The notes beneath the pieces were generated by a model. The model had not been told where the DNA came from. It was given only the letters and a program-made list of their open reading frames with translations, and searched no databases. Positions 22,557-31,858 of a stretch of DNA of 64,000 bases are shown here, piece by piece (the stretch's first letter is position 1; the number at the start of each line of letters is the position of its first letter). The translations under genes were made by a program, and so were the position numbers. Origin of the DNA: Escherichia phage FL18. The DNA lies in sequence record PP400780; one strand, given 5' to 3'.

Positions 22557-25268
22557 ATGAAAGAATTTTACTTAACGGTTGAACAGATTGGTGATTCAAT
22601 TTTTGAACGTTACATCGATTCTAATGGCCGTGAACGTACTCGTGAAGTAGAATATAAACCATCACTGTTTGCTCATTGTCCAGAAAGTCAGGCTACGAAA
22701 TATTTCGATATCTACGGTAAGCCGTGTACTCGTAAGTTGTTCGCTAATATGCGTGATGCCTCCCAATGGATTAAACGCATGGAAGATATCGGACTTGAAG
22801 CACTTGGCATGGACGATTTCAAATTGGCGTATTTGTCTGACACTTATAACTATGAAATCAAATACGACCATACAAAAATTCGTGTGGCTAACTTCGACAT
22901 CGAAGTAACATCTCCGGATGGGTTCCCTGAGCCATCACAAGCAAAACATCCGATTGATGCTATCACCCATTATGACTCAATTGACGACAGGTTCTACGTA
23001 TTTGATCTATTGAATTCTCCATATGGTAATGTAGAAGAATGGTCTATTGAAATCGCTGCTAAGCTTCAAGAACAAGGCGGTGATGAAGTTCCATCTGAAA
23101 TTATCGATAAAATCATTTATATGCCGTTCGATAACGAAAAAGAATTGTTGATGGAATATCTCAACTTCTGGCAACAGAAAACTCCTGTCATTTTGACTGG
23201 ATGGAACGTTGAGTCATTCGATATTCCATATGTGTATAACCGAATCAAGAATATTTTTGGCGAATCTACTGCGAAACGTTTATCACCGCATCGTAAAACT
23301 CGTGTTAAAGTTATCGAAAACATGTATGGTTCTCGTGAAATCATTACATTGTTCGGTATCTCTGTTCTTGATTACATTGACCTTTACAAAAAATTCTCTT
23401 TTACCAATCAACCGTCGTATTCTCTGGATTACATTTCAGAATTTGAATTGAACGTTGGTAAACTGAAATATGATGGCCCTATTTCTAAGCTTCGTGAAAG
23501 CAATCACCAACGATATATAAGCTATAACATCATCGACGTGTATCGTGTATTGCAAATTGATGCTAAGCGTCAGTTCATCAACTTGAGTTTGGACATGGGT
23601 TATTATGCTAAGATACAGATTCAATCTGTGTTTAGCCCAATTAAAACATGGGATGCTATTATTTTTAATAGCCTTAAAGAGCAGAACAAGGTGATTCCAC
23701 AAGGTCGTTCTCACCCGGTTCAACCTTATCCCGGCGCTTTTGTTAAGGAACCTATTCCAAATCGATACAAATATGTAATGAGTTTCGACCTTACATCTCT
23801 GTATCCAAGTATTATTCGCCAAGTGAATATTAGCCCGGAAACAATAGCAGGAACGTTTAAAGTAGCTCCATTGCATGATTATATTAACGCAATCGCTGAA
23901 CGTCCTTCAGATGTGTACAGTTGCTCTCCTAACGGCATGATGTATTATAAAGACCGTGATGGTGTAGTTCCAACTGAAATCACTAAGGTCTTTAATCAAC
24001 GTAAAGAACATAAAGGTTACATGCTTGCAGCTCAACGTAATGGTGAAATAATTAAAGAGGCATTGCATAATCCTAATCTTTCTGTTGACGAACCATTAGA
24101 TGTTGATTATCGTTTCGACTTCAGCGATGAGATTAAAGAAAAGATTAAAAAGTTGTCTGCTAAATCTCTTAATGAAATGTTGTTTAGAGCTCAACGTACT
24201 GAAGTTGCAGGTATGACTGCACAAATTAACCGTAAATTGCTTATCAACTCGCTTTATGGTGCACTTGGAAACGTTTGGTTCCGTTATTACGATTTGCGTA
24301 ATGCAACTGCAATCACAACATTCGGGCAAATGGCTTTACAGTGGATTGAACGTAAAGTTAATGAATATCTGAATGAAGTTTGTGGTACAGAAGGTGAAGC
24401 TTTCGTTCTATATGGTGATACAGACTCCATTTATGTATCTGCAGATAAAATTATTGATAAGGTTGGTGAATCTAAATTCCGTGATACCAACCATTGGGTA
24501 GACTTCTTAGATAAGTTTGCACGTGAACGTATGGAACCTGCTATTGATAGAGGTTTCCGTGAAATGTGCGAATACATGAACAATAAACAACACTTAATGT
24601 TCATGGACCGAGAAGCTATCGCTGGGCCTCCGCTTGGTTCTAAAGGTATTGGCGGATTTTGGACTGGTAAGAAACGTTATGCATTAAACGTGTGGGATAT
24701 GGAAGGTACTCGTTACGCTGAGCCTAAACTCAAAATCATGGGTCTAGAAACTCAGAAATCTTCGACCCCTAAAGCAGTACAGAAAGCTCTTAAAGAATGT
24801 ATTCGTCGTATGCTTCAAGAAGGTGAAGAATCATTACAAGAATATTTTAAAGAGTTTGAAAAAGAATTCCGTCAATTGAATTATATTAGCATCGCGTCGG
24901 TATCTTCTGCGAATAACATTGCTAAATATGACGTAGGTGGATTCCCTGGTCCTAAATGCCCGTTCCATATTCGTGGAATTCTGACATATAACCGAGCTAT
25001 CAAAGGTAATATCGATGCACCACAAGTTGTAGAAGGTGAAAAAGTATATGTTCTGCCTTTACGTGAAGGAAACCCATTCGGTGATAAATGTATCGCATGG
25101 CCTTCTGGTACTGAAATCACAGATTTAATTAAAGACGATGTACTTCATTGGATGGACTACACTGTTCTCCTTGAGAAGACATTTATTAAACCACTTGAAG
25201 GATTCACATCAGCAGCGAAACTCGATTATGAGAAGAAAGCATCTCTGTTCGATATGTTCGATTTTTGA
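22557..25268 (+). CDS. 43: DNA polymerase gp43 (family B, RB69-type)
   Basis: 903 aa; exonuclease motif FDIEV, polymerase motifs DLTSLYPSII and YGDTDS; N-terminus matches recalled RB69 gp43. Confidence 0.97.
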   Translation: MKEFYLTVEQIGDSIFERYIDSNGRERTREVEYKPSLFAHCPESQATKYFDIYGKPCTRKLFANMRDASQWIKRMEDIGLEALGMDDFKLAYLSDTYNYEIKYDHTKIRVANFDIEVTSPDGFPEPSQAKHPIDAITHYDSIDDRFYVFDLLNSPYGNVEEWSIEIAAKLQEQGGDEVPSEIIDKIIYMPFDNEKELLMEYLNFWQQKTPVILTGWNVESFDIPYVYNRIKNIFGESTAKRLSPHRKTRVKVIENMYGSREIITLFGISVLDYIDLYKKFSFTNQPSYSLDYISEFELNVGKLKYDGPISKLRESNHQRYISYNIIDVYRVLQIDAKRQFINLSLDMGYYAKIQIQSVFSPIKTWDAIIFNSLKEQNKVIPQGRSHPVQPYPGAFVKEPIPNRYKYVMSFDLTSLYPSIIRQVNISPETIAGTFKVAPLHDYINAIAERPSDVYSCSPNGMMYYKDRDGVVPTEITKVFNQRKEHKGYMLAAQRNGEIIKEALHNPNLSVDEPLDVDYRFDFSDEIKEKIKKLSAKSLNEMLFRAQRTEVAGMTAQINRKLLINSLYGALGNVWFRYYDLRNATAITTFGQMALQWIERKVNEYLNEVCGTEGEAFVLYGDTDSIYVSADKIIDKVGESKFRDTNHWVDFLDKFARERMEPAIDRGFREMCEYMNNKQHLMFMDREAIAGPPLGSKGIGGFWTGKKRYALNVWDMEGTRYAEPKLKIMGLETQKSSTPKAVQKALKECIRRMLQEGEESLQEYFKEFEKEFRQLNYISIASVSSANNIAKYDVGGFPGPKCPFHIRGILTYNRAIKGNIDAPQVVEGEKVYVLPLREGNPFGDKCIAWPSGTEITDLIKDDVLHWMDYTVLLEKTFIKPLEGFTSAAKLDYEKKASLFDMFDF

Positions 25269-25308
25269 TATAATGTCATGGACGGTAAACTAATTAAATG
25301 AGAGAAAT

Positions 25309-25944
25309 ATGAAAACTACTCCTATTACTATCGCTATTGACGCAATCATAAAACAAGCTTCTTCTTTGGCCGCTATGGCCAAAGTAATTAGTCAAAACCC
25401 TGCTCGTTATAATGCTATTCTAGAAACTCTTCGACGCCCTGGACTTAGTAATTATGAAAGCCGGGTAATTATTACAGGTGTTGGTAAGAATGCTAATATC
25501 GCAACTAAAGCTTCCGAGACATTTGCTTCACTAGGTATTCCTAGCATGTATTTGAACACTGGGCATTATTCTCACGGTGATGCAGGATTCATTGCGCCTA
25601 ATGATGTGTTGATTCATATTAGTCGTTCTGGTAAGACTGAAGAAATGATAGGTGTTGCTAAACATCTTCGTATGATTCGTCCTCAGGTTAAACAGATTCT
25701 GTTACATTGTAACCCAGACATTCCACAAGAATACGAAGCTCTTTTTGATTATACGTTCTGTACTGGCATCGCGGTAGAGGTTGATGAGAATTCTCTGGCT
25801 CCGACTATGTCCACTACATTGTTGTTAGCGCTTATCGATACGTTTGCTATCAACCTTTCGTCTGAACGTGGATTTACCTCTAATGATTTCCTTAAGTTCC
25901 ATCCAGGCGGTGCACTAGGTGCCATGTTACGAGGCGAACAATGA
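25309..25944 (+). CDS. SIS-domain sugar-phosphate isomerase (arabinose-5-phosphate isomerase KdsD/GutQ-like, no CBS domains)
   Basis: ITGVGKNANIATK ... HGDAGFIAPNDVLIHISRSGKTEE ... APTMSTTLLLALID ... FHPGGALG align with recalled KdsD SIS-domain motifs. Confidence 0.7.
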   Translation: MKTTPITIAIDAIIKQASSLAAMAKVISQNPARYNAILETLRRPGLSNYESRVIITGVGKNANIATKASETFASLGIPSMYLNTGHYSHGDAGFIAPNDVLIHISRSGKTEEMIGVAKHLRMIRPQVKQILLHCNPDIPQEYEALFDYTFCTGIAVEVDENSLAPTMSTTLLLALIDTFAINLSSERGFTSNDFLKFHPGGALGAMLRGEQ

Positions 25945-26084
25945 AAGCAATAACAATAGGACTTTTACTATTGATGCTTGTCATGACTATCTACTGGAGC
26001 TTAACGGCTCCGGTAATGATTCCAACACTTGTAATTGGATGGATTATGATTGGACTACAAGCAAAGTATGAATGCTTTAACTAG
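25941..26084 (+). CDS. small membrane protein (47 aa)
   Basis: manual translation MKAITIGLLLLMLVMTIYWSLTAPVMIPTLVIGWIMIGLQAKYECFN; ATGA overlap with SIS gene stop; below ORF-track cutoff. Confidence 0.4.
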   Translation: MKAITIGLLLLMLVMTIYWSLTAPVMIPTLVIGWIMIGLQAKYECFN

Positions 26085-26097
26085 AATAGTGTACAAT
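26070..26097 (+). promoter_or_regulatory. putative MotA-dependent middle promoter (MotA box AATGCTTTA, -10 TACAAT 12 nt downstream)
   Basis: aatgctttaactagaatagtgtacaat upstream of nucleotidyltransferase-kinase gene. Confidence 0.4.
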
Positions 26098-26125
26098 ACT
26101 CCTACTTACCAATGAGGACTTTAAC

Positions 26126-27811
26126 ATGAAAAAAGCTGTTATTCTTGGTGCTGGACTGGCAACTCGTTTGTATCCAATAACGCATCATATTCCTAAGGTG
26201 CTTGTTAACTATAAACAAGATACTATTCTGAGCAATTTGTATACAATTTATTCTGACCTTGGCGCAGATGAAATTATTGTAGTAGTTCATTCAAAATTTG
26301 CTGAAACTGTTCGAGCTTATTGTGAACAAGAAGGGTTCAATGTGACTATTCGTACAGTTGATGAAGCGTATGGTTCTGCTTATGCTCTTGCTAAATTACA
26401 CAAAGATTTAGACGGCCATAATGTAATTGTTAACTGGTGTGATATTATTCCTGATTTTGGTTCATGGTCTTGGAATGTTAACGCAATCTATGTTAAGGGT
26501 GACGAATGTCGATATAATTTCGACGGTGAAAATATCACTAACGTAGGTTCAACAGGTGGTAATGTTGTAGGAATTTATCAGTTCAAAGACTGGGAATTCT
26601 ATATGGGTTCTACTGATGAGGAAATTCATGAATACTGCAAAGGACGTGATTTCGTAGAATTCCTTTACGGCAGCGCATTCAATAAATCAGAGCTTATGAA
26701 TCTAATTGATTTAGGTGATATGCCTAAACTTGAAAAAGCTCATGAAGTTCGTGAACTTAATCGTAGTTTTAATGCAGTTGAAATTGGTGAAGAAACTGTA
26801 ACTAAATTCGCATTAACCGAACAGGGTCGAGCTCTTCAGAAAGATGAGATTTCGTGGTATCTTAAAGTGAAATCAGATTCAGTTCCTCAGTTAGTTTCTG
26901 TTAATGAAAATAACTTTGAAATGGAACGCATTAAAGGTAAGCCTGCATTTGAATATATTAAATCCAAATCAAGTCTTGCTCGTCCACAAATTGTTGATGC
27001 AATTTTAGATGCACTGAAATTCAGCACAGACACTTATTTTGTAAGTCCTGAAACTGTTCGTCGTGATTTCACTAAAGAATTCTATACGAAAGTTATTGAT
27101 CGTTGTGAAAGCATTCAACCATTGATTGATTCATTTGGTAAAATCACACATGTGAACTACACTAAGATTGGACGTCTGAAGCCAATGCTGAAACAAGCTT
27201 TAGAACACCTCATTCGTTATCATAACCGTTCTCAGGGACAGTACTCTGTTATTCACGGTGACCCGAACTTCAGTAATACTATGATTACTGATAATGGCGA
27301 AGTCAAGTTTATCGACCCTCGTGGATATTTTGGTGAAACCAAGATTTACGGGCCAAAATTGTACGATGAAGCTAAAGTGCTTTATGCTGTTTCAGGTTAT
27401 GATGAATTCAATGCTAATCCGACCTGGGGGCAGTTTACTATTGATGAAACAACTTGTAATGTGACTATTAACATCAATCCATTAGTTTACAAATATAGAA
27501 AGATGAGTTCGTTTAACGAGTATCATCATTTGGCAGTGGCAATTATCTGGATTGCATTAGGCGGTTATTTCAAGAATAATCCACTTAAAGCGGTAGCCGC
27601 ATATTATAAAGGTATGGAACTTCTGACTAAGCAATTACGTAACATGGGCCGTGTACTTCAGGACGGCTCTATTAGTTATGACGTAGCAGAACCTGTAACG
27701 GCTACTCTGATTACAAAAAATCCTGGTAAATGGGTACTAACTGATAAAGAAACTGGTGTTTCCTATCGTCCAATCGGTGGCGATATCACTCATCAATGGG
27801 AACGAATCTAA
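26126..27811 (+). CDS. bifunctional sugar-1-phosphate nucleotidyltransferase / kinase-like fusion protein
   Basis: N-terminus MKKAVILGAGLATRLYPITHHIPKVLV (sugar nucleotidyltransferase G-rich loop); C-terminal region has protein-kinase-like HGDPNFSNTMI (catalytic loop) and FIDPRGYFG (DFG-like) as in APH/choline-kinase-type small-molecule kinases. Confidence 0.65.
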   Translation: MKKAVILGAGLATRLYPITHHIPKVLVNYKQDTILSNLYTIYSDLGADEIIVVVHSKFAETVRAYCEQEGFNVTIRTVDEAYGSAYALAKLHKDLDGHNVIVNWCDIIPDFGSWSWNVNAIYVKGDECRYNFDGENITNVGSTGGNVVGIYQFKDWEFYMGSTDEEIHEYCKGRDFVEFLYGSAFNKSELMNLIDLGDMPKLEKAHEVRELNRSFNAVEIGEETVTKFALTEQGRALQKDEISWYLKVKSDSVPQLVSVNENNFEMERIKGKPAFEYIKSKSSLARPQIVDAILDALKFSTDTYFVSPETVRRDFTKEFYTKVIDRCESIQPLIDSFGKITHVNYTKIGRLKPMLKQALEHLIRYHNRSQGQYSVIHGDPNFSNTMITDNGEVKFIDPRGYFGETKIYGPKLYDEAKVLYAVSGYDEFNANPTWGQFTIDETTCNVTININPLVYKYRKMSSFNEYHHLAVAIIWIALGGYFKNNPLKAVAAYYKGMELLTKQLRNMGRVLQDGSISYDVAEPVTATLITKNPGKWVLTDKETGVSYRPIGGDITHQWERI

Positions 27812-28197
27812 TGCACCGTGTAGAAAACATGCTTAATCTTTGTTTTGATGTCGATGATTGTATAACAGAGTGGAATAACAATCGTGATTACGTGAACTTC
27901 AAACCTGACGTCGAAATGGTGTCTGCCATTAATGCCCTGTATGATGCAGGGCATACCATAACGCTTTACACTGCTCGCGGTATGAAGTCAGTAGGTCCTG
28001 GACGTATAGCAATTGACATTCTCCCAAGTCTGATTCAGAACTTGGAAAACATTGGTTTGAAGTACCATAATTTGCTAACACATAAACCAGTATATGATTG
28101 GATTATCGACGACAAAGCTATGCGTCCTGACGAATTCAAAGCTCTTATGAATAAAGGCGAATTCGAAACATTTAAATCGTATAAACCGAATCTATAA
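27811..28197 (+). CDS. HAD-superfamily phosphatase-like protein (start uncertain: 27796, 27811 or 27829)
   Basis: N-terminal LCFDVDDCIT (motif I-like DxD), TITLYTARG (motif II-like), WIIDDK (motif IV-like). Confidence 0.5.
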   Translation: MHRVENMLNLCFDVDDCITEWNNNRDYVNFKPDVEMVSAINALYDAGHTITLYTARGMKSVGPGRIAIDILPSLIQNLENIGLKYHNLLTHKPVYDWIIDDKAMRPDEFKALMNKGEFETFKSYKPNL

Positions 28198-28253
28198 TAA
28201 TTTAAGTAAGACCTGCAAAAACCATCGCGTCAATTAACGTGAGATGCAAAAAA

Positions 28254-29414
28254 ATGAATACTTTTAAAATTGGAACGAATTTTGATTTAGCTCTTCTTGA
28301 TAAAATCGTAGAGCTCAATAAAACTTATCCTAATAGCTTGATAAACGAAGTATACGGCTCTACAAGAGAAATGGCTTTTGTAGCAGCCAGACCTGATTTT
28401 AGGCTTCCTGACGTTGACAAAAAGATGTTAGAAGATTACGTTAAACGTTGTAACGAATTAGGTATTTGCTTTAACTATACACTCAACACGATAAATCCTG
28501 GTTCAAAAAGAGAACTAGTTGAGTGGAAGAAGAAAGCTATTCAGGATTATGTTCAGTATCTTTGGTCAATAGGTGTATGGCGTATTACTATCGCTAACCC
28601 TGTTGTTATGGAAATTGTTCGTGAAGTCAATAAAGACATTGAGATTGAAGTTTCAACAATTCTACATGTCGATGCTGTAACTCAAATCAAATACTTGCAT
28701 GACCAGTATAATATCAAAAAGGTCTGCTGTGGAATTCATAAGAACCGTTCAGTTTCTTTCCTGAAGCGTGCAGCAGAGTTTTGCAATAAGAACAATATAA
28801 TATTTGAAGTTCTTGTAAATGAGTTCTGTTCTAATGCTGGTAAAGGGTATACAACACATTGTAGCTATCGTGACTCTTGCTATATTTTCCATAGTACTGA
28901 TGTTACAGCTGATGATGCTAAATCCTTAAACGGATATCCTATGCAGCACTGTATTAAAGCTCGTGATACAGACCCATTTAACTGGTTGAGAACTCGTTTT
29001 GTTCGTCCTCAAGATTTGAAACTTTATAATGATATTGGTATCACTCAATTCAAAGTTTCAGGACGTACAGGTAGCACAGACTACATTTTGAAAGTTCTTG
29101 AAGCATACGCTTCTGAAAAGTTTGAAGGTAATTTGTTAGAACTGTGGAAGCCTTTAGAGACTATTTTCACTCTTGAAAACGAAACTGAGTTTTCACATAC
29201 AGTAAATATTGAAACCTCTTTGTTAGATGGCTTTTTAGAAAAAAGGTGGTTCAGACATCCAGATTTCGATTGTGCTAATGAAATCTGCGGGACGACGTGT
29301 ACATATTGTGAAAGATATTATAAACGTCAATTATCTAAAAACGGGTTAGCAGAAAACTCTATATCTATTATTGATATAACTAACTCTGATGACGCTTTGA
29401 GGTACCCGGAATGA
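28254..29414 (+). CDS. Cys-rich protein of unknown function (candidate metallo/Fe-S enzyme)
   Basis: 386 aa from ATG at 28254; Cys clusters CCGIH, FCSNAGKGYTTHCSYRDSC and C-terminal CANEICGTTCTYC (contains CX3CX2C). Confidence 0.5.
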   Translation: MNTFKIGTNFDLALLDKIVELNKTYPNSLINEVYGSTREMAFVAARPDFRLPDVDKKMLEDYVKRCNELGICFNYTLNTINPGSKRELVEWKKKAIQDYVQYLWSIGVWRITIANPVVMEIVREVNKDIEIEVSTILHVDAVTQIKYLHDQYNIKKVCCGIHKNRSVSFLKRAAEFCNKNNIIFEVLVNEFCSNAGKGYTTHCSYRDSCYIFHSTDVTADDAKSLNGYPMQHCIKARDTDPFNWLRTRFVRPQDLKLYNDIGITQFKVSGRTGSTDYILKVLEAYASEKFEGNLLELWKPLETIFTLENETEFSHTVNIETSLLDGFLEKRWFRHPDFDCANEICGTTCTYCERYYKRQLSKNGLAENSISIIDITNSDDALRYPE

Positions 29415-29650
29415 TTTCTAGAAAAACTTTTAATCACCAACTTAATGAAGAGATTTTGACTACGAAACTGAACACTAACGAACAAATTCTTAAAAAGGCC
29501 CTTATGGGCCTGTTTGAAACCAAAGCGGCTAAAGTGATTAAAGGACCTGTTCAATTAGAATATTACGCTGATACATTTCTTCATAGTGTTCTTGGAAGTA
29601 TCGATGCTGAAGCTTTACGTTATATCAACATTGCCAAGAAATTCAAATAA
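29411..29650 (+). CDS. hypothetical protein (79 aa)
   Basis: ATGA-overlapping ORF at end of sugar cassette. Confidence 0.45.
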   Translation: MISRKTFNHQLNEEILTTKLNTNEQILKKALMGLFETKAAKVIKGPVQLEYYADTFLHSVLGSIDAEALRYINIAKKFK

Positions 29651-29692
29651 GCTTTACGAATTGAGTATATAATAAATTGTATTGAGGTAAAC

Positions 29693-30409
29693 ATGGGGAA
29701 ACATAACACAATGAAATATATCAAAGCCGCAGATTTTCAAACCGCATTTAAAGCAGTCAATCGTGAAATTTTAGAAAACCCGGAATTCGTAACTGATTCT
29801 CGTATTGGACGTTGTAATGAAATTGGGTCTATGACAGTAGTTGTTGACACTCCATCATCATTCAAAATGACTGACCCACGTATTAACCGCATCTCTTATG
29901 AATATGCCGAAGACTTCTGGAAGTTTATGATTTCTGGTGGTACCAACGCAGAAGAAGCGTTTAAGGCATATCCTAATGTCGCTAAATTTATTTCTAAACC
30001 AAAATCAGATGTTTTGCCGGCGAACTTCAATACTTTCTATGGTCCTCGCATTGCGGCCCAATTACCAGCTCTTCTAAAAGAACTTAAAGAGAAGCCTAAC
30101 TCTCGAAGAGTTGTGTTCCAAATTCTAGAAAGTTCTGATCAGGCTTTGCTTGATTCGGATGAAACGCTTGAATATCCATGTACTGACTCAGTGACTTATT
30201 ATATTCGTGATGGTAAGCTTTATACCCACTGTCATATGCGTTCTCAGAACTGTGCTGTTGTTATGCAGTTGGATTTTTATCTCCAAGGAAAATTACTTCA
30301 TTATATCGCTAACGAATGCGGTGTAGAAGTTGGTGATTATACTCATACCATGGTAAGTGCCCATGTGTTTGAACGTGATTTTGATTATGTTAAAGGATTC
30401 CTTGACTAA
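29693..30409 (+). CDS. 42: deoxynucleotide hydroxymethylase, thymidylate-synthase family (T4 gp42 dCMP hydroxymethylase-like)
   Basis: YPCTDSVTYYIRDGKLYTHCHMRSQNCAVVMQLDFY matches the TS/dCH catalytic core (PC nucleophile, MRS motif); synteny downstream of 43. Confidence 0.75.
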   Translation: MGKHNTMKYIKAADFQTAFKAVNREILENPEFVTDSRIGRCNEIGSMTVVVDTPSSFKMTDPRINRISYEYAEDFWKFMISGGTNAEEAFKAYPNVAKFISKPKSDVLPANFNTFYGPRIAAQLPALLKELKEKPNSRRVVFQILESSDQALLDSDETLEYPCTDSVTYYIRDGKLYTHCHMRSQNCAVVMQLDFYLQGKLLHYIANECGVEVGDYTHTMVSAHVFERDFDYVKGFLD

Positions 30410-31308
30410 TGGCTATTTTCCGCGTACCAATCTTGAGTATGCGGTCTTATGAAACTGGACAGTATGCTATCCTTAAGGATGGCAACTTCCAACTTCATTT
30501 GCACCGTGCTAATCCGGGTGATGTGATTACATATCCACGTAATGCATCTGATATTAAAGAATGCGAACGTCTTTTCCCAGAATTTAAGTTTGTTCCATTA
30601 TGGTATAAAGATAACGCTTATAACACTCGTAAATATTTCTGGTCTGAAAATGAATTTGTGGTTGATTCATTAATTGCTTATTATGATTGCGATTTTCTAA
30701 TCACAGATATAACTGGATATGACGGCGCTTTTGATGTAGAATTCAATTTCAATATCACTGCAGACCCTAATAAACCACGTTTTTATATTGACGAATTCTT
30801 AAAAACCGACATGTTGTCGGTTAATCGTTCAATCCAAACAACTGTGTTGAATGAACGTCAAAAAGAAGTGCTGGTTAACGCAGGTGCAGATGGTAATAAG
30901 ATTATCGTAACGCAGAAAGTTATACGTCCTTCCATCATGCAGCGTCTTGTAGGTGATTTGGCTCCTATTTATCTAGATGGTATTTTTCATCCATTTCGAA
31001 TTAGTGACCCGTGCTATCGTTTTGAACAAGTGGTTGAATGTGCAATTCAATTAGGTCAACCGCTTTATATAACCGATCCAAATAATAGCTTTGACAGAAA
31101 TAAGTATCCTGAAGAAGCGTTGATTCGAATTTTTAAACCAACTAAAACTGAGTACTATCAAATTCTTAAAGGACGTCCGAAGATTCAATATTTCGAAAAT
31201 CCTGAAGAGGTATTTCATCCAGGTCTTGGTGAGTTCATCTACTTTAATGCTTTAATTTCTTCACCGTATAATATACCTAAATATGAAGATGTCGTAATCG
31301 AGGAATAA
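30409..31308 (+). CDS. hypothetical protein occupying the T4 beta-glucosyltransferase locus (candidate DNA sugar transferase)
   Basis: 299 aa ORF between gene 42 and uvsX; no similarity to recalled T4 beta-GT. Confidence 0.45.
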   Translation: MAIFRVPILSMRSYETGQYAILKDGNFQLHLHRANPGDVITYPRNASDIKECERLFPEFKFVPLWYKDNAYNTRKYFWSENEFVVDSLIAYYDCDFLITDITGYDGAFDVEFNFNITADPNKPRFYIDEFLKTDMLSVNRSIQTTVLNERQKEVLVNAGADGNKIIVTQKVIRPSIMQRLVGDLAPIYLDGIFHPFRISDPCYRFEQVVECAIQLGQPLYITDPNNSFDRNKYPEEALIRIFKPTKTEYYQILKGRPKIQYFENPEEVFHPGLGEFIYFNALISSPYNIPKYEDVVIEE

Positions 31309-31309
31309 A

Positions 31310-31858
31310 ATGGCTAAAATTATTTTAGTAGATGGCCCGGATAATGCTGGTAAAACAACTTTCATTAATGACATAATGGAAATTAGTGAAAGATATGTAA
31401 AAATTGATTTCCCTAAACGAACAGTTGATGGACGTTTCGATGTTAAGTCTCGAAATGAAGTTGGCTGTTTTGAAACGATGTTGAATTATTTAGACCCTAC
31501 TAAGATTTATCTGTTAGACCGTGGATATATTAGTAACTGGGTTTACGGACGTATTCGACAAGATGCGGACTCGGTTCTTGACGTTTATGAACAGGATTAT
31601 ATTCGTCTTTGCCAAAACCATGATGTGTTCACAATTATTTTAACACGTAACGAAATGACTGAAAGTTTTGAAGACGACCTTATTACTTTGTCTTCATTCG
31701 GTTTTAATACAGTCATTTCACATTTTGAAGAGTTTGCAATTCATAACAAAATCCAAACGTATCAATTACTTAATCATGATGGTGCTAACAAAGTTATAGG
31801 ATTTAATGCAAGCGAACGTAATGGTTTGATTACAGAAATCATCAAATGGGCTCGTTAA
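31310..31858 (+). CDS. P-loop nucleoside/nucleotide kinase-like protein
   Basis: Walker A GPDNAGKTT near N-terminus; LLDRGYISNWVYG resembles the DR(Y) motif of TMK/dNK-type kinases. Confidence 0.5.
   Translation: MAKIILVDGPDNAGKTTFINDIMEISERYVKIDFPKRTVDGRFDVKSRNEVGCFETMLNYLDPTKIYLLDRGYISNWVYGRIRQDADSVLDVYEQDYIRLCQNHDVFTIILTRNEMTESFEDDLITLSSFGFNTVISHFEEFAIHNKIQTYQLLNHDGANKVIGFNASERNGLITEIIKWAR

What the first reader, a model, noticed from the sequence alone, without database searches (positions are those of the whole stretch)
26126..27811. Single polypeptide fusing a sugar nucleotidyltransferase domain with a kinase-like domain
The N-terminal 250 or so residues start with the G-rich loop typical of sugar-1-phosphate nucleotidyltransferases (MKKAVILGAGLATRLYP). 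The C-terminal part contains HGDPNFSNTMI and FIDPRGYFG, resembling the catalytic and DFG-like loops of APH/choline-kinase-type kinases. This architecture is reminiscent of bifunctional salvage enzymes that make an NDP-sugar from a free sugar in two steps (sugar-1-kinase plus pyrophosphorylase). A putative MotA-box middle promoter (26070-26097) sits immediately upstream.
Basis: inference. Interest (0 to 1): 0.75.

Follow-up and report, generated by a model that had tools for sequence, protein, structure and literature searches.

The report
Phage UDP-arabinose kinase–pyrophosphorylase fusion enzyme

Summary
It is 99.5% identical to RB69 ORF53_52c (gp52:53), so the window is an RB69-like Mosigvirus.

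Both domains hold up:
- Pfam places residues 3-99 in NTP_transferase, above the curated cut-off.
- The catalytic residues of both domains are invariant in 30 homologues, down to 28% identity.

The upstream MotA-type motif (TGCTTTA-N12-TACAAT, 26073-26097) belongs to a class found 19 times in the window against 1.8 expected. Both of its boxes are conserved in a distant relative.

The function is published. Thomas et al. 2018 showed the single 561-aa ORF and proposed a role in UDP-arabinose synthesis. Lee et al. (NAR 2026), citing He et al. (Nat Chem Biol 2026), equate it with AfhE. AfhE phosphorylates D-arabinose-5-phosphate at C1, a HAD phosphatase (the next gene) removes the 5-phosphate, and the N-terminal domain then makes UDP-arabinofuranose for arabinosylating 5-hydroxycytosine.

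Verdict: already known, low interest.

A side lead concerns the neighbouring U32 gene. In related phages a chorismate mutase gene lies next to it.

The parts
26073..26097 (+). MotA-type (T4 middle) promoter-like site: MotA box TGCTTTA 26073-26079, 12-nt spacer, -10 TACAAT 26092-26097. The expected transcription start is near 26104.
   Evidence: 19 matches to TGCTTYA-N11-13-TANNNT in the window against 1.78 expected; both boxes are invariant in JK42, Bas46 and the distant Winklervirus LC53, while the spacer sequence diverges. No transcript data; function is inferred.
26114..26117 (+). Shine-Dalgarno GAGG, 8 nt before the ATG at 26126
   Evidence: Read directly; conserved in LC53.
26126..27811 (+). 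Gene for the 561-aa bifunctional enzyme, the orthologue of RB69 ORF53_52c / gp52:53 and a homologue of AfhE
   Evidence: (99.5% identical to RB69 over 561 aa); PMC6024577 section 3.4; PMC13326640 section 27.
26126..26740 (+). N-terminal domain (about residues 1-205): sugar-1-phosphate nucleotidyltransferase, proposed UDP-arabinofuranose pyrophosphorylase. Invariant residues: G10, R14, L15 (G-loop), K24, D106, D195, G197, D198, K201.
26741..27646 (+). C-terminal kinase domain (about residues 206-507), eukaryotic-like / APH-choline-kinase fold, proposed D-arabinose-5-phosphate 1-kinase. Invariant residues: K227 (beta3 Lys), E241 (alphaC Glu), H377-G378-D379 (catalytic loop), N384, D397 (DFG-like Asp in IDPRG), plus R213, R326, R399, K417 and K488.
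27647..27808 (+). C-terminal extension (about residues 508-561) of unknown role. It is present in the T4-like phage and close metagenomic homologues and absent from the more distant ones. Model confidence is lower here (pLDDT 73-86).
   Evidence: Alignment columns 690-749; pLDDT blocks and DSSP.
25309..25944 (+). SIS-domain arabinose-5-phosphate isomerase (RB69 gp55 orthologue). It supplies the kinase substrate from ribulose-5-phosphate.
   Evidence: Pfam SIS. NCBIfam KpsF/GutQ E 5e-32 and KdsD E 2e-30, both below the curated cut-offs. phrog_5670. PMC13326640.
27796..28197 (+). HAD-like phosphatase (RB69 gp51 orthologue, AfhF homologue). It overlaps the end of the kinase-NTase gene; an alternative in-frame start at 27811 forms TAATG with that gene's stop codon.
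   Evidence: NCBIfam TIGR01689 capsule biosynthesis phosphatase E 1.9e-13, and HAD-IIIA weak. phrog_1238. Sequence. PMC13326640 section 27.
29693..30409 (+). Thymidylate-synthase homologue (RB69 gp48 orthologue), the published 5-hydroxy-dCMP synthase that makes the acceptor base
   Evidence: Pfam Thymidylat_synt; PMC13326640 (experimental for RB69 gp48).
30409..31308 (+). 299-aa ORF, the counterpart of RB69 gp46:47 (predicted first DNA arabinosyltransferase). It would use the UDP-arabinose.
   Evidence: ORF. Assignment is by position and by PMC13326640 Table 1; I did not test it here.
31310..31858 (+). 182-aa P-loop nucleotide kinase-like ORF (RB69 gp45 counterpart)
   Evidence: ORF. Annotated 'putative thymidylate kinase' in Bas46. 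Not tested further.

Best explanation
The gene encodes the Mosigvirus orthologue of the phage enzyme AfhE (RB69 gp52:53). It is a two-domain enzyme in the pathway that turns the host's ribulose-5-phosphate into UDP-D-arabinofuranose. That sugar donor is used to arabinosylate 5-hydroxycytosine in phage DNA.

Proposed sequence of steps:
1. The SIS isomerase (25309-25944) converts ribulose-5-P to D-arabinose-5-P.
2. The C-terminal kinase domain of this protein uses ATP to phosphorylate C1, giving arabinofuranose-1,5-bisphosphate.
3. The HAD phosphatase encoded by the overlapping downstream gene (27796-28197) removes the 5-phosphate, giving arabinofuranose-1-P.
4. The N-terminal nucleotidyltransferase domain condenses it with UTP to give UDP-arabinofuranose and pyrophosphate.
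5. GT-B arabinosyltransferases (30409-31308 and one elsewhere in the genome) transfer the sugar to 5-hydroxycytosine. The precursor of that base, 5-hydroxy-dCMP, is made by the thymidylate-synthase homologue (29693-30409).

The gene is probably transcribed from a MotA-dependent middle promoter at 26073-26097, and possibly also by read-through from upstream.

Shown here: the ORF, both folds, conservation of the catalytic residues, near-identity to RB69, the gene neighbourhood, and the promoter-like motif with its conservation.

Taken from the literature: the substrates, the order of steps and the use of UTP (shown for HY126 AfhE/AfhF, as reported second-hand in PMC13326640), and the structure of the DNA modification (shown for RB69).

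Inferred: that this near-identical protein does the same, and that acting on the 5-phosphate locks the sugar in the furanose ring form.
For: - **ORF and motifs:**
- **Identity to RB69:** 99.5% to RB69 ORF052c+053c. The match comes in two pieces only because of the known single-base error in the RB69 record (PMC6024577 section 3.4, which also showed a single band of about 64 kDa on expression).
- **Catalytic residues:** invariant in both domains across 30 homologues down to 28% identity.
- **Neighbourhood in the window:** SIS isomerase, HAD phosphatase, ThyA homologue and the glycosyltransferase-position ORF.
- **Linkage in remote phages:**
  - Acinetobacter DLP1 has SIS, NTase-kinase, HAD and ThyA-like genes in a row.
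  - Dhakavirus IME08 has NTase-kinase, HAD, a kinase and a ThyA-like gene.
  - Enterococcus phage 9183 has ThyA, a HAD-like gene and NTase-kinase together.
  - Tenacibaculum phage PTm5 has NTase-kinase, a histidine phosphatase and a ThyA-like gene.
- **Rosetta-stone fusions:** proteins of 890-955 aa carry HAD, SIS, NTase and kinase in one chain.
- **Literature:** PMC13326640 section 27 assigns RB69 gp52:53 as the AfhE homologue and gives the A5P -> A1,5P2 -> A1P -> UDP-Araf order. Bas46, 99.1% identical, has been annotated 'putative enzyme involved in UDP-arabinose biosynthesis' since 2021.
- **Established analogy (own knowledge):** the ADP-heptose pathway has the same logic, with GmhA (SIS isomerase), HldE kinase, GmhB (HAD phosphatase) and HldE adenylyltransferase.
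- **Entry metabolite:** IME08 lacks its own SIS gene. This fits A5P, which Gram-negative hosts already make for Kdo synthesis, as the entry metabolite.
Against: - I have no enzymology for this protein or for RB69 gp52:53 itself. The biochemical data are for HY126 AfhE, whose sequence I could not obtain, and the primary paper (He et al. 2026) is not in the held library. I know it only through PMC13326640.
- Table 1 of PMC13326640 still lists the alternative order (HAD: Araf5P -> Ara; kinase: Ara -> Araf1P), so the two sources of annotation disagree within one paper.
- The kinase domain scores below every Pfam kinase cut-off by sequence.
- Nucleotide specificity (UTP rather than another NTP) cannot be read from the sequence.
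- The promoter is only a consensus match. It lies inside the end of the 47-aa upstream ORF, and there are no transcript data.
Confidence: 0.85

Rival explanations
1. Free-sugar salvage order, as the first reader proposed and as Table 1 of PMC13326640 lists. The HAD phosphatase first dephosphorylates arabinose-5-P to free D-arabinose. The kinase domain then phosphorylates the anomeric hydroxyl of the free sugar. The NTase domain acts immediately afterwards, so the fusion would catalyse two consecutive steps, as AmgK/MurU do.
For: The closest structural relatives of the kinase domain act on substrates without a phosphate group: choline, glucosamine, fructosamine, aminoglycosides and maltose. MurU, whose partner AmgK phosphorylates a free sugar, is among the best NTase matches. 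Fusing two enzymes is most easily explained if they catalyse consecutive steps. Table 1 of PMC13326640 gives this order.
Against: The text of PMC13326640 (section 27) reports that HY126 AfhE has D-arabinose-5-phosphate kinase activity and that AfhF dephosphorylates the 1,5-bisphosphate. Free D-arabinose would equilibrate mainly to the pyranose form, whereas the product is a furanoside (inference). The ADP-heptose pathway shows the same kinase-phosphatase-NTase order, also with a fused kinase/NTase (own knowledge). Several invariant Arg/Lys residues beyond the usual kinase set (R213, R326, R399, K417) would suit an anionic substrate, but this is weak evidence.
Confidence: 0.1
2. Same architecture but a different product: the enzyme activates another sugar or polyol phosphate, or uses another nucleotide (CTP, GTP or dTTP), and is not dedicated to UDP-arabinose.
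For: The best single structural and sequence match of the NTase domain is a cytidylyltransferase (LicC). Distant family members are fused to a cupin/mannose-6-P-isomerase-like domain instead of SIS (P0106, P0107), so the family as a whole probably handles more than one sugar. Nucleotide specificity was not testable here.
Against: The protein is 99.5% identical to the RB69 protein. RB69 DNA carries arabinose on 5-hydroxycytosine (PMC13326640, PMC6024577). The neighbouring isomerase is of the KpsF/GutQ/KdsD arabinose-5-P type. HY126 AfhE is reported to be a UDP-D-arabinose pyrophosphorylase.
Confidence: 0.04
3. GlmU-like bifunctional enzyme, as several GenBank records annotate it ('bifunctional protein GlmU'), or a LicC-LicA-type phosphocholine activating enzyme.
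For: GenBank annotations in JK42, JK45, mobillu and others. Weak NCBIfam hits to GlmU-type models over residues 3-109 only. LicC and LicA are both among the structural matches.
Against: All GlmU-type hits cover only the shared NTase N-terminus and lie far below the cut-offs (for example 22 bits against 367). The C-terminal domain has a kinase fold, not a left-handed beta-helix acetyltransferase fold. The gene context is nucleotide and DNA modification, not choline or cell-wall metabolism.
Confidence: 0.01

Closest known systems
AfhE of Escherichia phage HY126 and RB69 gp52:53 (ORF53_52c): bifunctional D-arabinose-5-phosphate kinase / UDP-D-arabinose pyrophosphorylase of the arabinosyl-5-hydroxycytosine pathway (He et al., Nat Chem Biol 2026, as cited in PMC13326640; Thomas et al. 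2018, PMC6024577)
   Same: Same length (561 aa) and 99.5% identical to the RB69 protein. Same two-domain architecture. [quoted passage not shown]
   Different: Nothing of substance. The window's gene is intact, whereas the RB69 GenBank record splits it through a sequencing error. Identity to HY126 AfhE itself could not be measured.
ADP-heptose pathway: GmhA (SIS isomerase), HldE (fused kinase/adenylyltransferase), GmhB (HAD phosphatase)
   Same: Same pathway logic: a ketose phosphate is isomerised to an aldose phosphate, an anomeric kinase makes a bisphosphate, a HAD phosphatase removes the distal phosphate, and an NTase acts last. The kinase and NTase are fused even though their steps are not consecutive (own knowledge of the pathway; SIS and HAD assignments).
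   Different: This is analogy, not homology, for the fused enzyme. By own knowledge, the HldE kinase domain has a ribokinase/PfkB fold and its transferase domain a cytidylyltransferase-like fold. Here the folds are APH/choline-kinase type and RmlA/LicC type. The sugar is a pentose and the nucleotide is UTP.
AmgK/MurU (MurNAc anomeric kinase plus uridylyltransferase) and LicA/LicC (choline kinase plus CTP:phosphocholine cytidylyltransferase; fused as LicCA in some bacteria)
   Different: Those kinases act on unphosphorylated substrates, and their two steps are consecutive with no phosphatase between them. Sequence identity is only 11-21%. Their biological role is cell-wall recycling or phosphocholine decoration, not DNA modification.
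Eukaryotic and Bacteroides salvage fusions: L-fucokinase/GDP-fucose pyrophosphorylase (FKP) and Leishmania arabino/fucokinase-pyrophosphorylases
   Same: One polypeptide combines a sugar-1-kinase with an NDP-sugar pyrophosphorylase.
   Different: By own knowledge, their kinase domain is of the GHMP family. No GHMP kinase appears among the listed matches of the model. They act on free sugars.

Membership tests
AfhE / RB69 gp52:53 family (phage arabinose-5-P kinase / UDP-arabinose pyrophosphorylase) | N-terminal sugar-1-phosphate nucleotidyltransferase domain with the GxGxRL loop and a conserved Lys | tested here: met
AfhE / RB69 gp52:53 family (phage arabinose-5-P kinase / UDP-arabinose pyrophosphorylase) | C-terminal eukaryotic-like (APH/choline kinase) kinase domain with an intact catalytic set | tested here: met
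AfhE / RB69 gp52:53 family (phage arabinose-5-P kinase / UDP-arabinose pyrophosphorylase) | Orthology to the described proteins | tested here: met
   99.5% identity over all 561 residues to RB69 ORF052c+053c, and 99.1% to Bas46 bas46_0146. The homology of RB69 gp52:53 to AfhE is stated in PMC13326640.
AfhE / RB69 gp52:53 family (phage arabinose-5-P kinase / UDP-arabinose pyrophosphorylase) | Gene cluster with an arabinose-5-P isomerase, a HAD phosphatase, a ThyA-like 5hodCMP synthase and a DNA glycosyltransferase | tested here: met
   The same core is linked in DLP1, IME08, phage 9183 and PTm5. The glycosyltransferase assignment was not tested independently.
AfhE / RB69 gp52:53 family (phage arabinose-5-P kinase / UDP-arabinose pyrophosphorylase) | Enzyme activities: A5P + ATP -> Araf-1,5-P2, and Araf-1-P + UTP -> UDP-Araf | not testable with these tools
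   Reported for HY126 AfhE by He et al. 2026, as cited in PMC13326640 section 27. The primary paper is not held.
GlmU (name given in several GenBank records) | C-terminal left-handed beta-helix acetyltransferase domain, and a full-length match to GlmU models | tested here: not met
   GlmU models match residues 3-109 only, at 14-23 bits against cut-offs of 367-718. The C-terminal domain is a mixed alpha/beta kinase fold.
HldE (ADP-heptose bifunctional kinase/adenylyltransferase) | PfkB/ribokinase-fold kinase domain and a cytidylyltransferase-like adenylyltransferase domain | tested here: not met
LicC-LicA / AmgK-MurU type salvage pairs | Kinase acts on an unphosphorylated substrate and the NTase uses its product directly, with no intervening phosphatase | not testable with these tools
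   The folds are shared. However, the locus carries a dedicated, translationally overlapping HAD phosphatase, and the literature reports A5P as the kinase substrate.

The most novel reading that the evidence does not exclude
For the 561-aa gene itself, little room is left. The most novel reading not excluded is that its roughly 54-residue C-terminal extension (about residues 508-561), present in the T4-like phage and close metagenomic homologues and absent from the more distant ones, docks the HAD phosphatase or a glycosyltransferase, so that the bisphosphate intermediate is channelled between the two non-consecutive active sites.

The more interesting open reading concerns the module the gene sits in. 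The very highly conserved U32-family gene (28254-29414) lies two genes downstream. In most related lineages it is directly followed by a chorismate mutase gene with all its catalytic residues intact. This pair could be a prephenate-dependent, O2-independent hydroxylase system of the RlhA/TrhP/UbiUV type. It might make 5-hydroxycytosine when the host grows without oxygen, as a back-up for the O2- and flavin-dependent ThyA-like synthase.
Probability: 0.2. Interest if true: 0.6.

Novelty: already known. Interest (0 to 1): 0.15.

Why it matters
The enzyme supplies the sugar donor for a DNA hypermodification, mono- and di-arabosylated 5-hydroxycytosine replacing all cytosine. This modification shields Mosigvirus genomes from many restriction enzymes and influences their sensitivity to type IV restriction and CRISPR systems. 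That is relevant to phage therapy and phage engineering. UDP-D-arabinofuranose is also a rare sugar nucleotide, so the enzyme has some biocatalytic interest.

All of this has already been recognised in the literature (PMC6024577, PMC13326640, and the papers they cite). Re-finding it here adds confirmation and a corrected annotation: many GenBank records call the protein 'GlmU' or 'hypothetical'. It does not add new biology.

Tried and rejected
- **Solved structure by sequence.** I searched the PDB by sequence for a structure of this enzyme or of AfhE. Only distant NTase matches appeared (best LicC, E 2e-5) and nothing for the kinase domain.
- **Primary papers.** I tried to read He et al. 2026 and Mahler et al. 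2025. Neither is held, and no supplements of PMC13326640 are held. The identity to HY126 AfhE and the primary enzymology could therefore not be checked.
- **Sigma-70 promoter and terminator scan of 25000-31000.** Counts were no higher than in shuffled sequence, so it was uninformative.
- **Is the 79-aa ORF (29411-29650) a diverged chorismate mutase?**
  - No Pfam hit even at E 10.
  - BLASTP against the LC53 chorismate mutase was negative.
  - Profile-profile probability was 0.15%.
  - Its homologues are confined to close Mosigvirus relatives.
  - Rejected: it is an unrelated small ORF in that position.
- **Does the U32 gene track host oxygen physiology?** It is absent from the Acinetobacter phages but also from the E. 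coli Dhakavirus IME08. The correlation is therefore imperfect.
- **GlmU, HldE and FKP-type assignments.** All were rejected on fold.
Full report
**Observation**

It begins MKKAVILGAGLATRLYP and contains HGDPNFSNTMI (residues 377-387) and FIDPRGYFG (395-403).

It is a real, conserved gene. It matches phrog_4098 end to end (E 3e-295). tblastn finds it in 373 phage genome records, 363 of them at 80% coverage or more. The 5.8-billion-protein search gave 314 homologues.

The window is an RB69-like Mosigvirus:
- The upstream ORF 22557-25268 (903 aa) lies where Bas46 and JK42 annotate the DNA polymerase, and I recognise its sequence as the RB69 gp43 polymerase (own knowledge).
- The 4.4-kb region is 95-99% identical to about 150 Mosigvirus genomes.
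- The protein is 99.5% identical to RB69 ORF052c+053c.

**Domains**

The N-terminal part is a sugar-1-phosphate nucleotidyltransferase:
- Pfam NTP_transferase matches residues 3-99 at 39.1 bits, above the 21.2-bit cut-off.
- The best PDB sequence match is the cytidylyltransferase LicC.

By sequence alone the kinase part is only hinted at. APH, fructosamine kinase, EcKL and RIO1 all hit residues 344-409 below their cut-offs. I therefore built a 30-sequence alignment reaching down to 28% identity and predicted the structure from it. The model has mean pLDDT 92.0 and pTM 0.88.

The invariant columns of the alignment are the catalytic sets expected for both folds:
- NTase: G10, R14, L15, K24, D106, D195, G197, D198, K201.
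- Kinase: K227, E241, H377-G378-D379, N384, D397.

Both active sites are therefore under selection across the family. A C-terminal extension (about residues 508-561), present in the T4-like phage and close metagenomic homologues and missing from the more distant ones, is modelled less confidently. It has no assigned role.

**Promoter**

The site is TGCTTTA (26073-26079), 12 nt, TACAAT (26092-26097). It fits the T4 middle-promoter pattern.
- That pattern occurs 19 times in the window against 1.78 +/- 1.28 in shuffles, so the class is real in this genome.
- In an alignment with JK42, Bas46 and the distant Serratia phage LC53, both boxes and the GAGG ribosome-binding site are invariant. The spacer between the boxes has diverged in sequence but kept its length. 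This is a phylogenetic footprint.
- Function remains inferred, because there are no transcript data.

**Surroundings**

Upstream lie a SIS-domain isomerase of the KpsF/GutQ/KdsD type (25309-25944) and a conserved 47-aa hydrophobic ORF.

Downstream, in order:
- a HAD-like phosphatase that overlaps the stop codon (27796 or 27811 to 28197);
- a U32-family protein (28254-29414);
- a 79-aa ORF;
- a thymidylate-synthase homologue (29693-30409);
- a 299-aa ORF in the position of RB69 gp46:47;
- a P-loop kinase, followed by uvsX.

The core linkage of NTase-kinase, a phosphatase and a ThyA-like gene recurs far away:
- Acinetobacter phage DLP1;
- Dhakavirus IME08, which lacks its own isomerase;
- Enterococcus siphovirus 9183;
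- Tenacibaculum jumbo phage PTm5, where a histidine phosphatase replaces the HAD enzyme.

Distant homologues of 890-955 aa carry HAD, SIS, NTase and kinase in one chain. This is a Rosetta-stone argument that the four activities form one pathway.

**What is known**

- Thomas et al. 2018 (PMC6024577, section 3.4) resequenced RB69. They showed that ORF053c and ORF052c are one 561-residue ORF, expressed it as a band of about 64 kDa, noted fusions to SIS domains in Butyrivibrio, and proposed a role in UDP-arabinose synthesis.
- The BASEL phage Bas46 has carried the annotation 'putative enzyme involved in UDP-arabinose biosynthesis' since 2021.
- Lee et al. (NAR 2026, PMC13326640) showed that RB69 DNA carries mono- and di-arabosylated 5-hydroxycytosine, and that gp48 makes 5-hydroxy-dCMP.
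- The same paper describes gp52:53 as the homologue of HY126 AfhE, which He et al. [quoted passage not shown] The HAD enzyme AfhF (gp51) removes the 5-phosphate of the 1,5-bisphosphate between the two steps.
- Their structural matches (4y7t, 1jyk, 3ham, 6hwl) agree with mine.

I could not read He et al. or Mahler et al. 2025 directly.

**Mechanism**

The best-supported scheme has five steps:
1. ribulose-5-P to arabinose-5-P (SIS isomerase);
2. arabinose-5-P to arabinofuranose-1,5-bisphosphate (kinase domain);
3. bisphosphate to arabinofuranose-1-P (HAD phosphatase);
4. arabinofuranose-1-P plus UTP to UDP-arabinofuranose (NTase domain);
5. transfer of the sugar to 5-hydroxycytosine in DNA.

This mirrors the ADP-heptose pathway (GmhA, HldE, GmhB), including the fusion of two non-consecutive activities, but with unrelated kinase and transferase folds. 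It is analogy, not membership.

It is still listed in Table 1 of PMC13326640. The reported AfhE/AfhF biochemistry contradicts it. So does the chemical argument that a 5-phosphate forces the furanose ring (an inference). I give it about 0.1.

The GenBank label 'GlmU' is wrong, because the C-terminal domain has a kinase fold and not an acetyltransferase beta-helix.

**Verdict**

The feature is already known, so interest is low.

**Side observations**

(a) *Giant-virus fusions.* The four-domain HAD-SIS-NTase-kinase fusions sit on contigs that look like giant-virus genomes. P0084 lies next to RNA polymerase Rpb2, RNA_pol_N and a MutS-HNH gene. Another fusion comes from a Ceratiomyxa transcriptome.

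(b) *The U32 gene.*
- It is found in 221 phage records, always at 80% identity or more. This is far more conserved than the kinase-NTase, which falls to 42% within the Straboviridae.
- In Winklervirus, Kanagawavirus, Marfavirus, Tegunavirus, Bragavirus and Shewanella phages it is immediately followed by a chorismate mutase gene (Pfam CM_2, 44.6 bits). That gene has invariant R8, R25, K36, E49, S71 and Q75. By my recollection, their spacing matches the E. coli chorismate mutase catalytic residues.
- U32 proteins RlhA, TrhP and UbiU/V are O2-independent hydroxylases that depend on prephenate. RlhA makes 5-hydroxycytidine in rRNA (PMC5727448, PMC6599085, PMC10990095).
- A prephenate-dependent, oxygen-independent route to 5-hydroxycytosine in these phages is therefore an attractive hypothesis. 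PMC13326640 does not raise it.
- Against it: in this window the chorismate-mutase slot holds an unrelated 79-aa ORF. Only two of the four canonical cluster cysteines align. Dhakavirus and Acinetobacter phages manage without the gene.

Noticed in passing
window 28254-29414 (+) (an alternative GTG start lies at 28239): A U32-family ('peptidase') gene sits between the HAD phosphatase and the ThyA-like 5hodCMP synthase. It is present in 221 phage records, all at 80% identity or more, which makes it much more conserved than the neighbouring kinase-NTase. None of the 57 Acinetobacter phage records that carry the kinase-NTase appears among them, and DLP1 and Dhakavirus IME08 lack it in their clusters. 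It keeps two of the four canonical U32 Fe-S cysteines in an alignment with UbiU, UbiV and RlhA, and has an extra C-terminal CX4CX3CX2C cluster. Known U32 members (RlhA, TrhP, UbiU/V) are prephenate-dependent, O2-independent hydroxylases, and RlhA makes 5-hydroxycytidine. It might be an anaerobic route to 5-hydroxycytosine. PMC13326640 lists it only as 'sugar or heterocycle reductase'.
   Followed up: partly
L010:6158-6502 (Serratia phage LC53); also L013:2492-2731, L011:2486-2731, L012:2447-2740, L014:2342-2728, L015:2507-2764: In most non-Mosigvirus relatives a small chorismate mutase gene (Pfam CM_2, 44.6 bits; invariant R8, R25, K36, E49, S71, Q75) directly follows the U32 gene, often overlapping it, and precedes the ThyA-like gene. 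tblastn finds it in 54 phage records. Chorismate mutase makes prephenate, the oxygen donor of U32 hydroxylases.
   Followed up: partly
window 29411-29650 (+): A 79-aa ORF occupies the slot held by the chorismate mutase in related phages, and is the same length as the Entb_45 chorismate mutase. It shows no detectable similarity to that family: no Pfam hit, and an hhalign probability of 0.15%. Its homologues are restricted to close Mosigvirus relatives (80% identity or more). Function unknown.
   Followed up: yes
P0084 on L002:8001-10781 (GCA_013558355.1 contig JACCDH010973257.1); also P0088, P0089, P0091, P0092, P0095, P0109: Proteins of 890-955 aa fuse HAD, SIS, nucleotidyltransferase and APH-like kinase domains in one chain, which covers the whole ribulose-5-P to NDP-arabinose pathway. 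P0084 lies next to RNA polymerase Rpb2, RNA_pol_N and a MutS-HNH gene, a context typical of giant viruses. P0091 comes from a Ceratiomyxa fruticulosa transcriptome. Other variants of 786-790 aa carry a cupin/mannose-6-P-isomerase-like C-terminus instead.
   Followed up: partly
window 25941-26084 (+): A conserved 47-aa hydrophobic ORF (phrog_3610, E 7e-27) lies between the isomerase and the kinase-NTase gene. Its ATG overlaps the isomerase stop codon (ATGA), and its 3' end contains the MotA box. The LC53 counterpart is annotated as having transmembrane segment(s). It has no assigned role in the arabinosylation pathway.
   Followed up: no
window 27796-27813: The HAD phosphatase gene overlaps the end of the kinase-NTase gene. 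One candidate start is 27796, 16 nt inside that gene. A second, in-frame ATG at 27811 forms TAATG with the stop codon. GenBank records disagree on the start (Bas46 gives 402 nt, JK42 gives 387 nt). Either way the arrangement suggests translational coupling of the two enzymes.
   Followed up: no
L018 (Dhakavirus IME08) and L006 (Tenacibaculum phage PTm5): The module varies between lineages. IME08 keeps the kinase-NTase, HAD, nucleotide kinase, ThyA-like and glycosyltransferase-position genes but has no isomerase, U32 or chorismate mutase. PTm5 has a histidine phosphatase in place of the HAD enzyme next to the kinase-NTase and ThyA-like genes, which looks like a non-orthologous replacement of the phosphatase step.
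   Followed up: no
GenBank records JK42, JK45, mobillu, phi25-307, CAU_ECP01, ESCO47, Entb_45: The protein is widely mis-annotated as 'bifunctional protein GlmU', and the HAD phosphatase as 'phosphoheptose isomerase'. Neither label fits the folds or family matches found here.
   Followed up: yes
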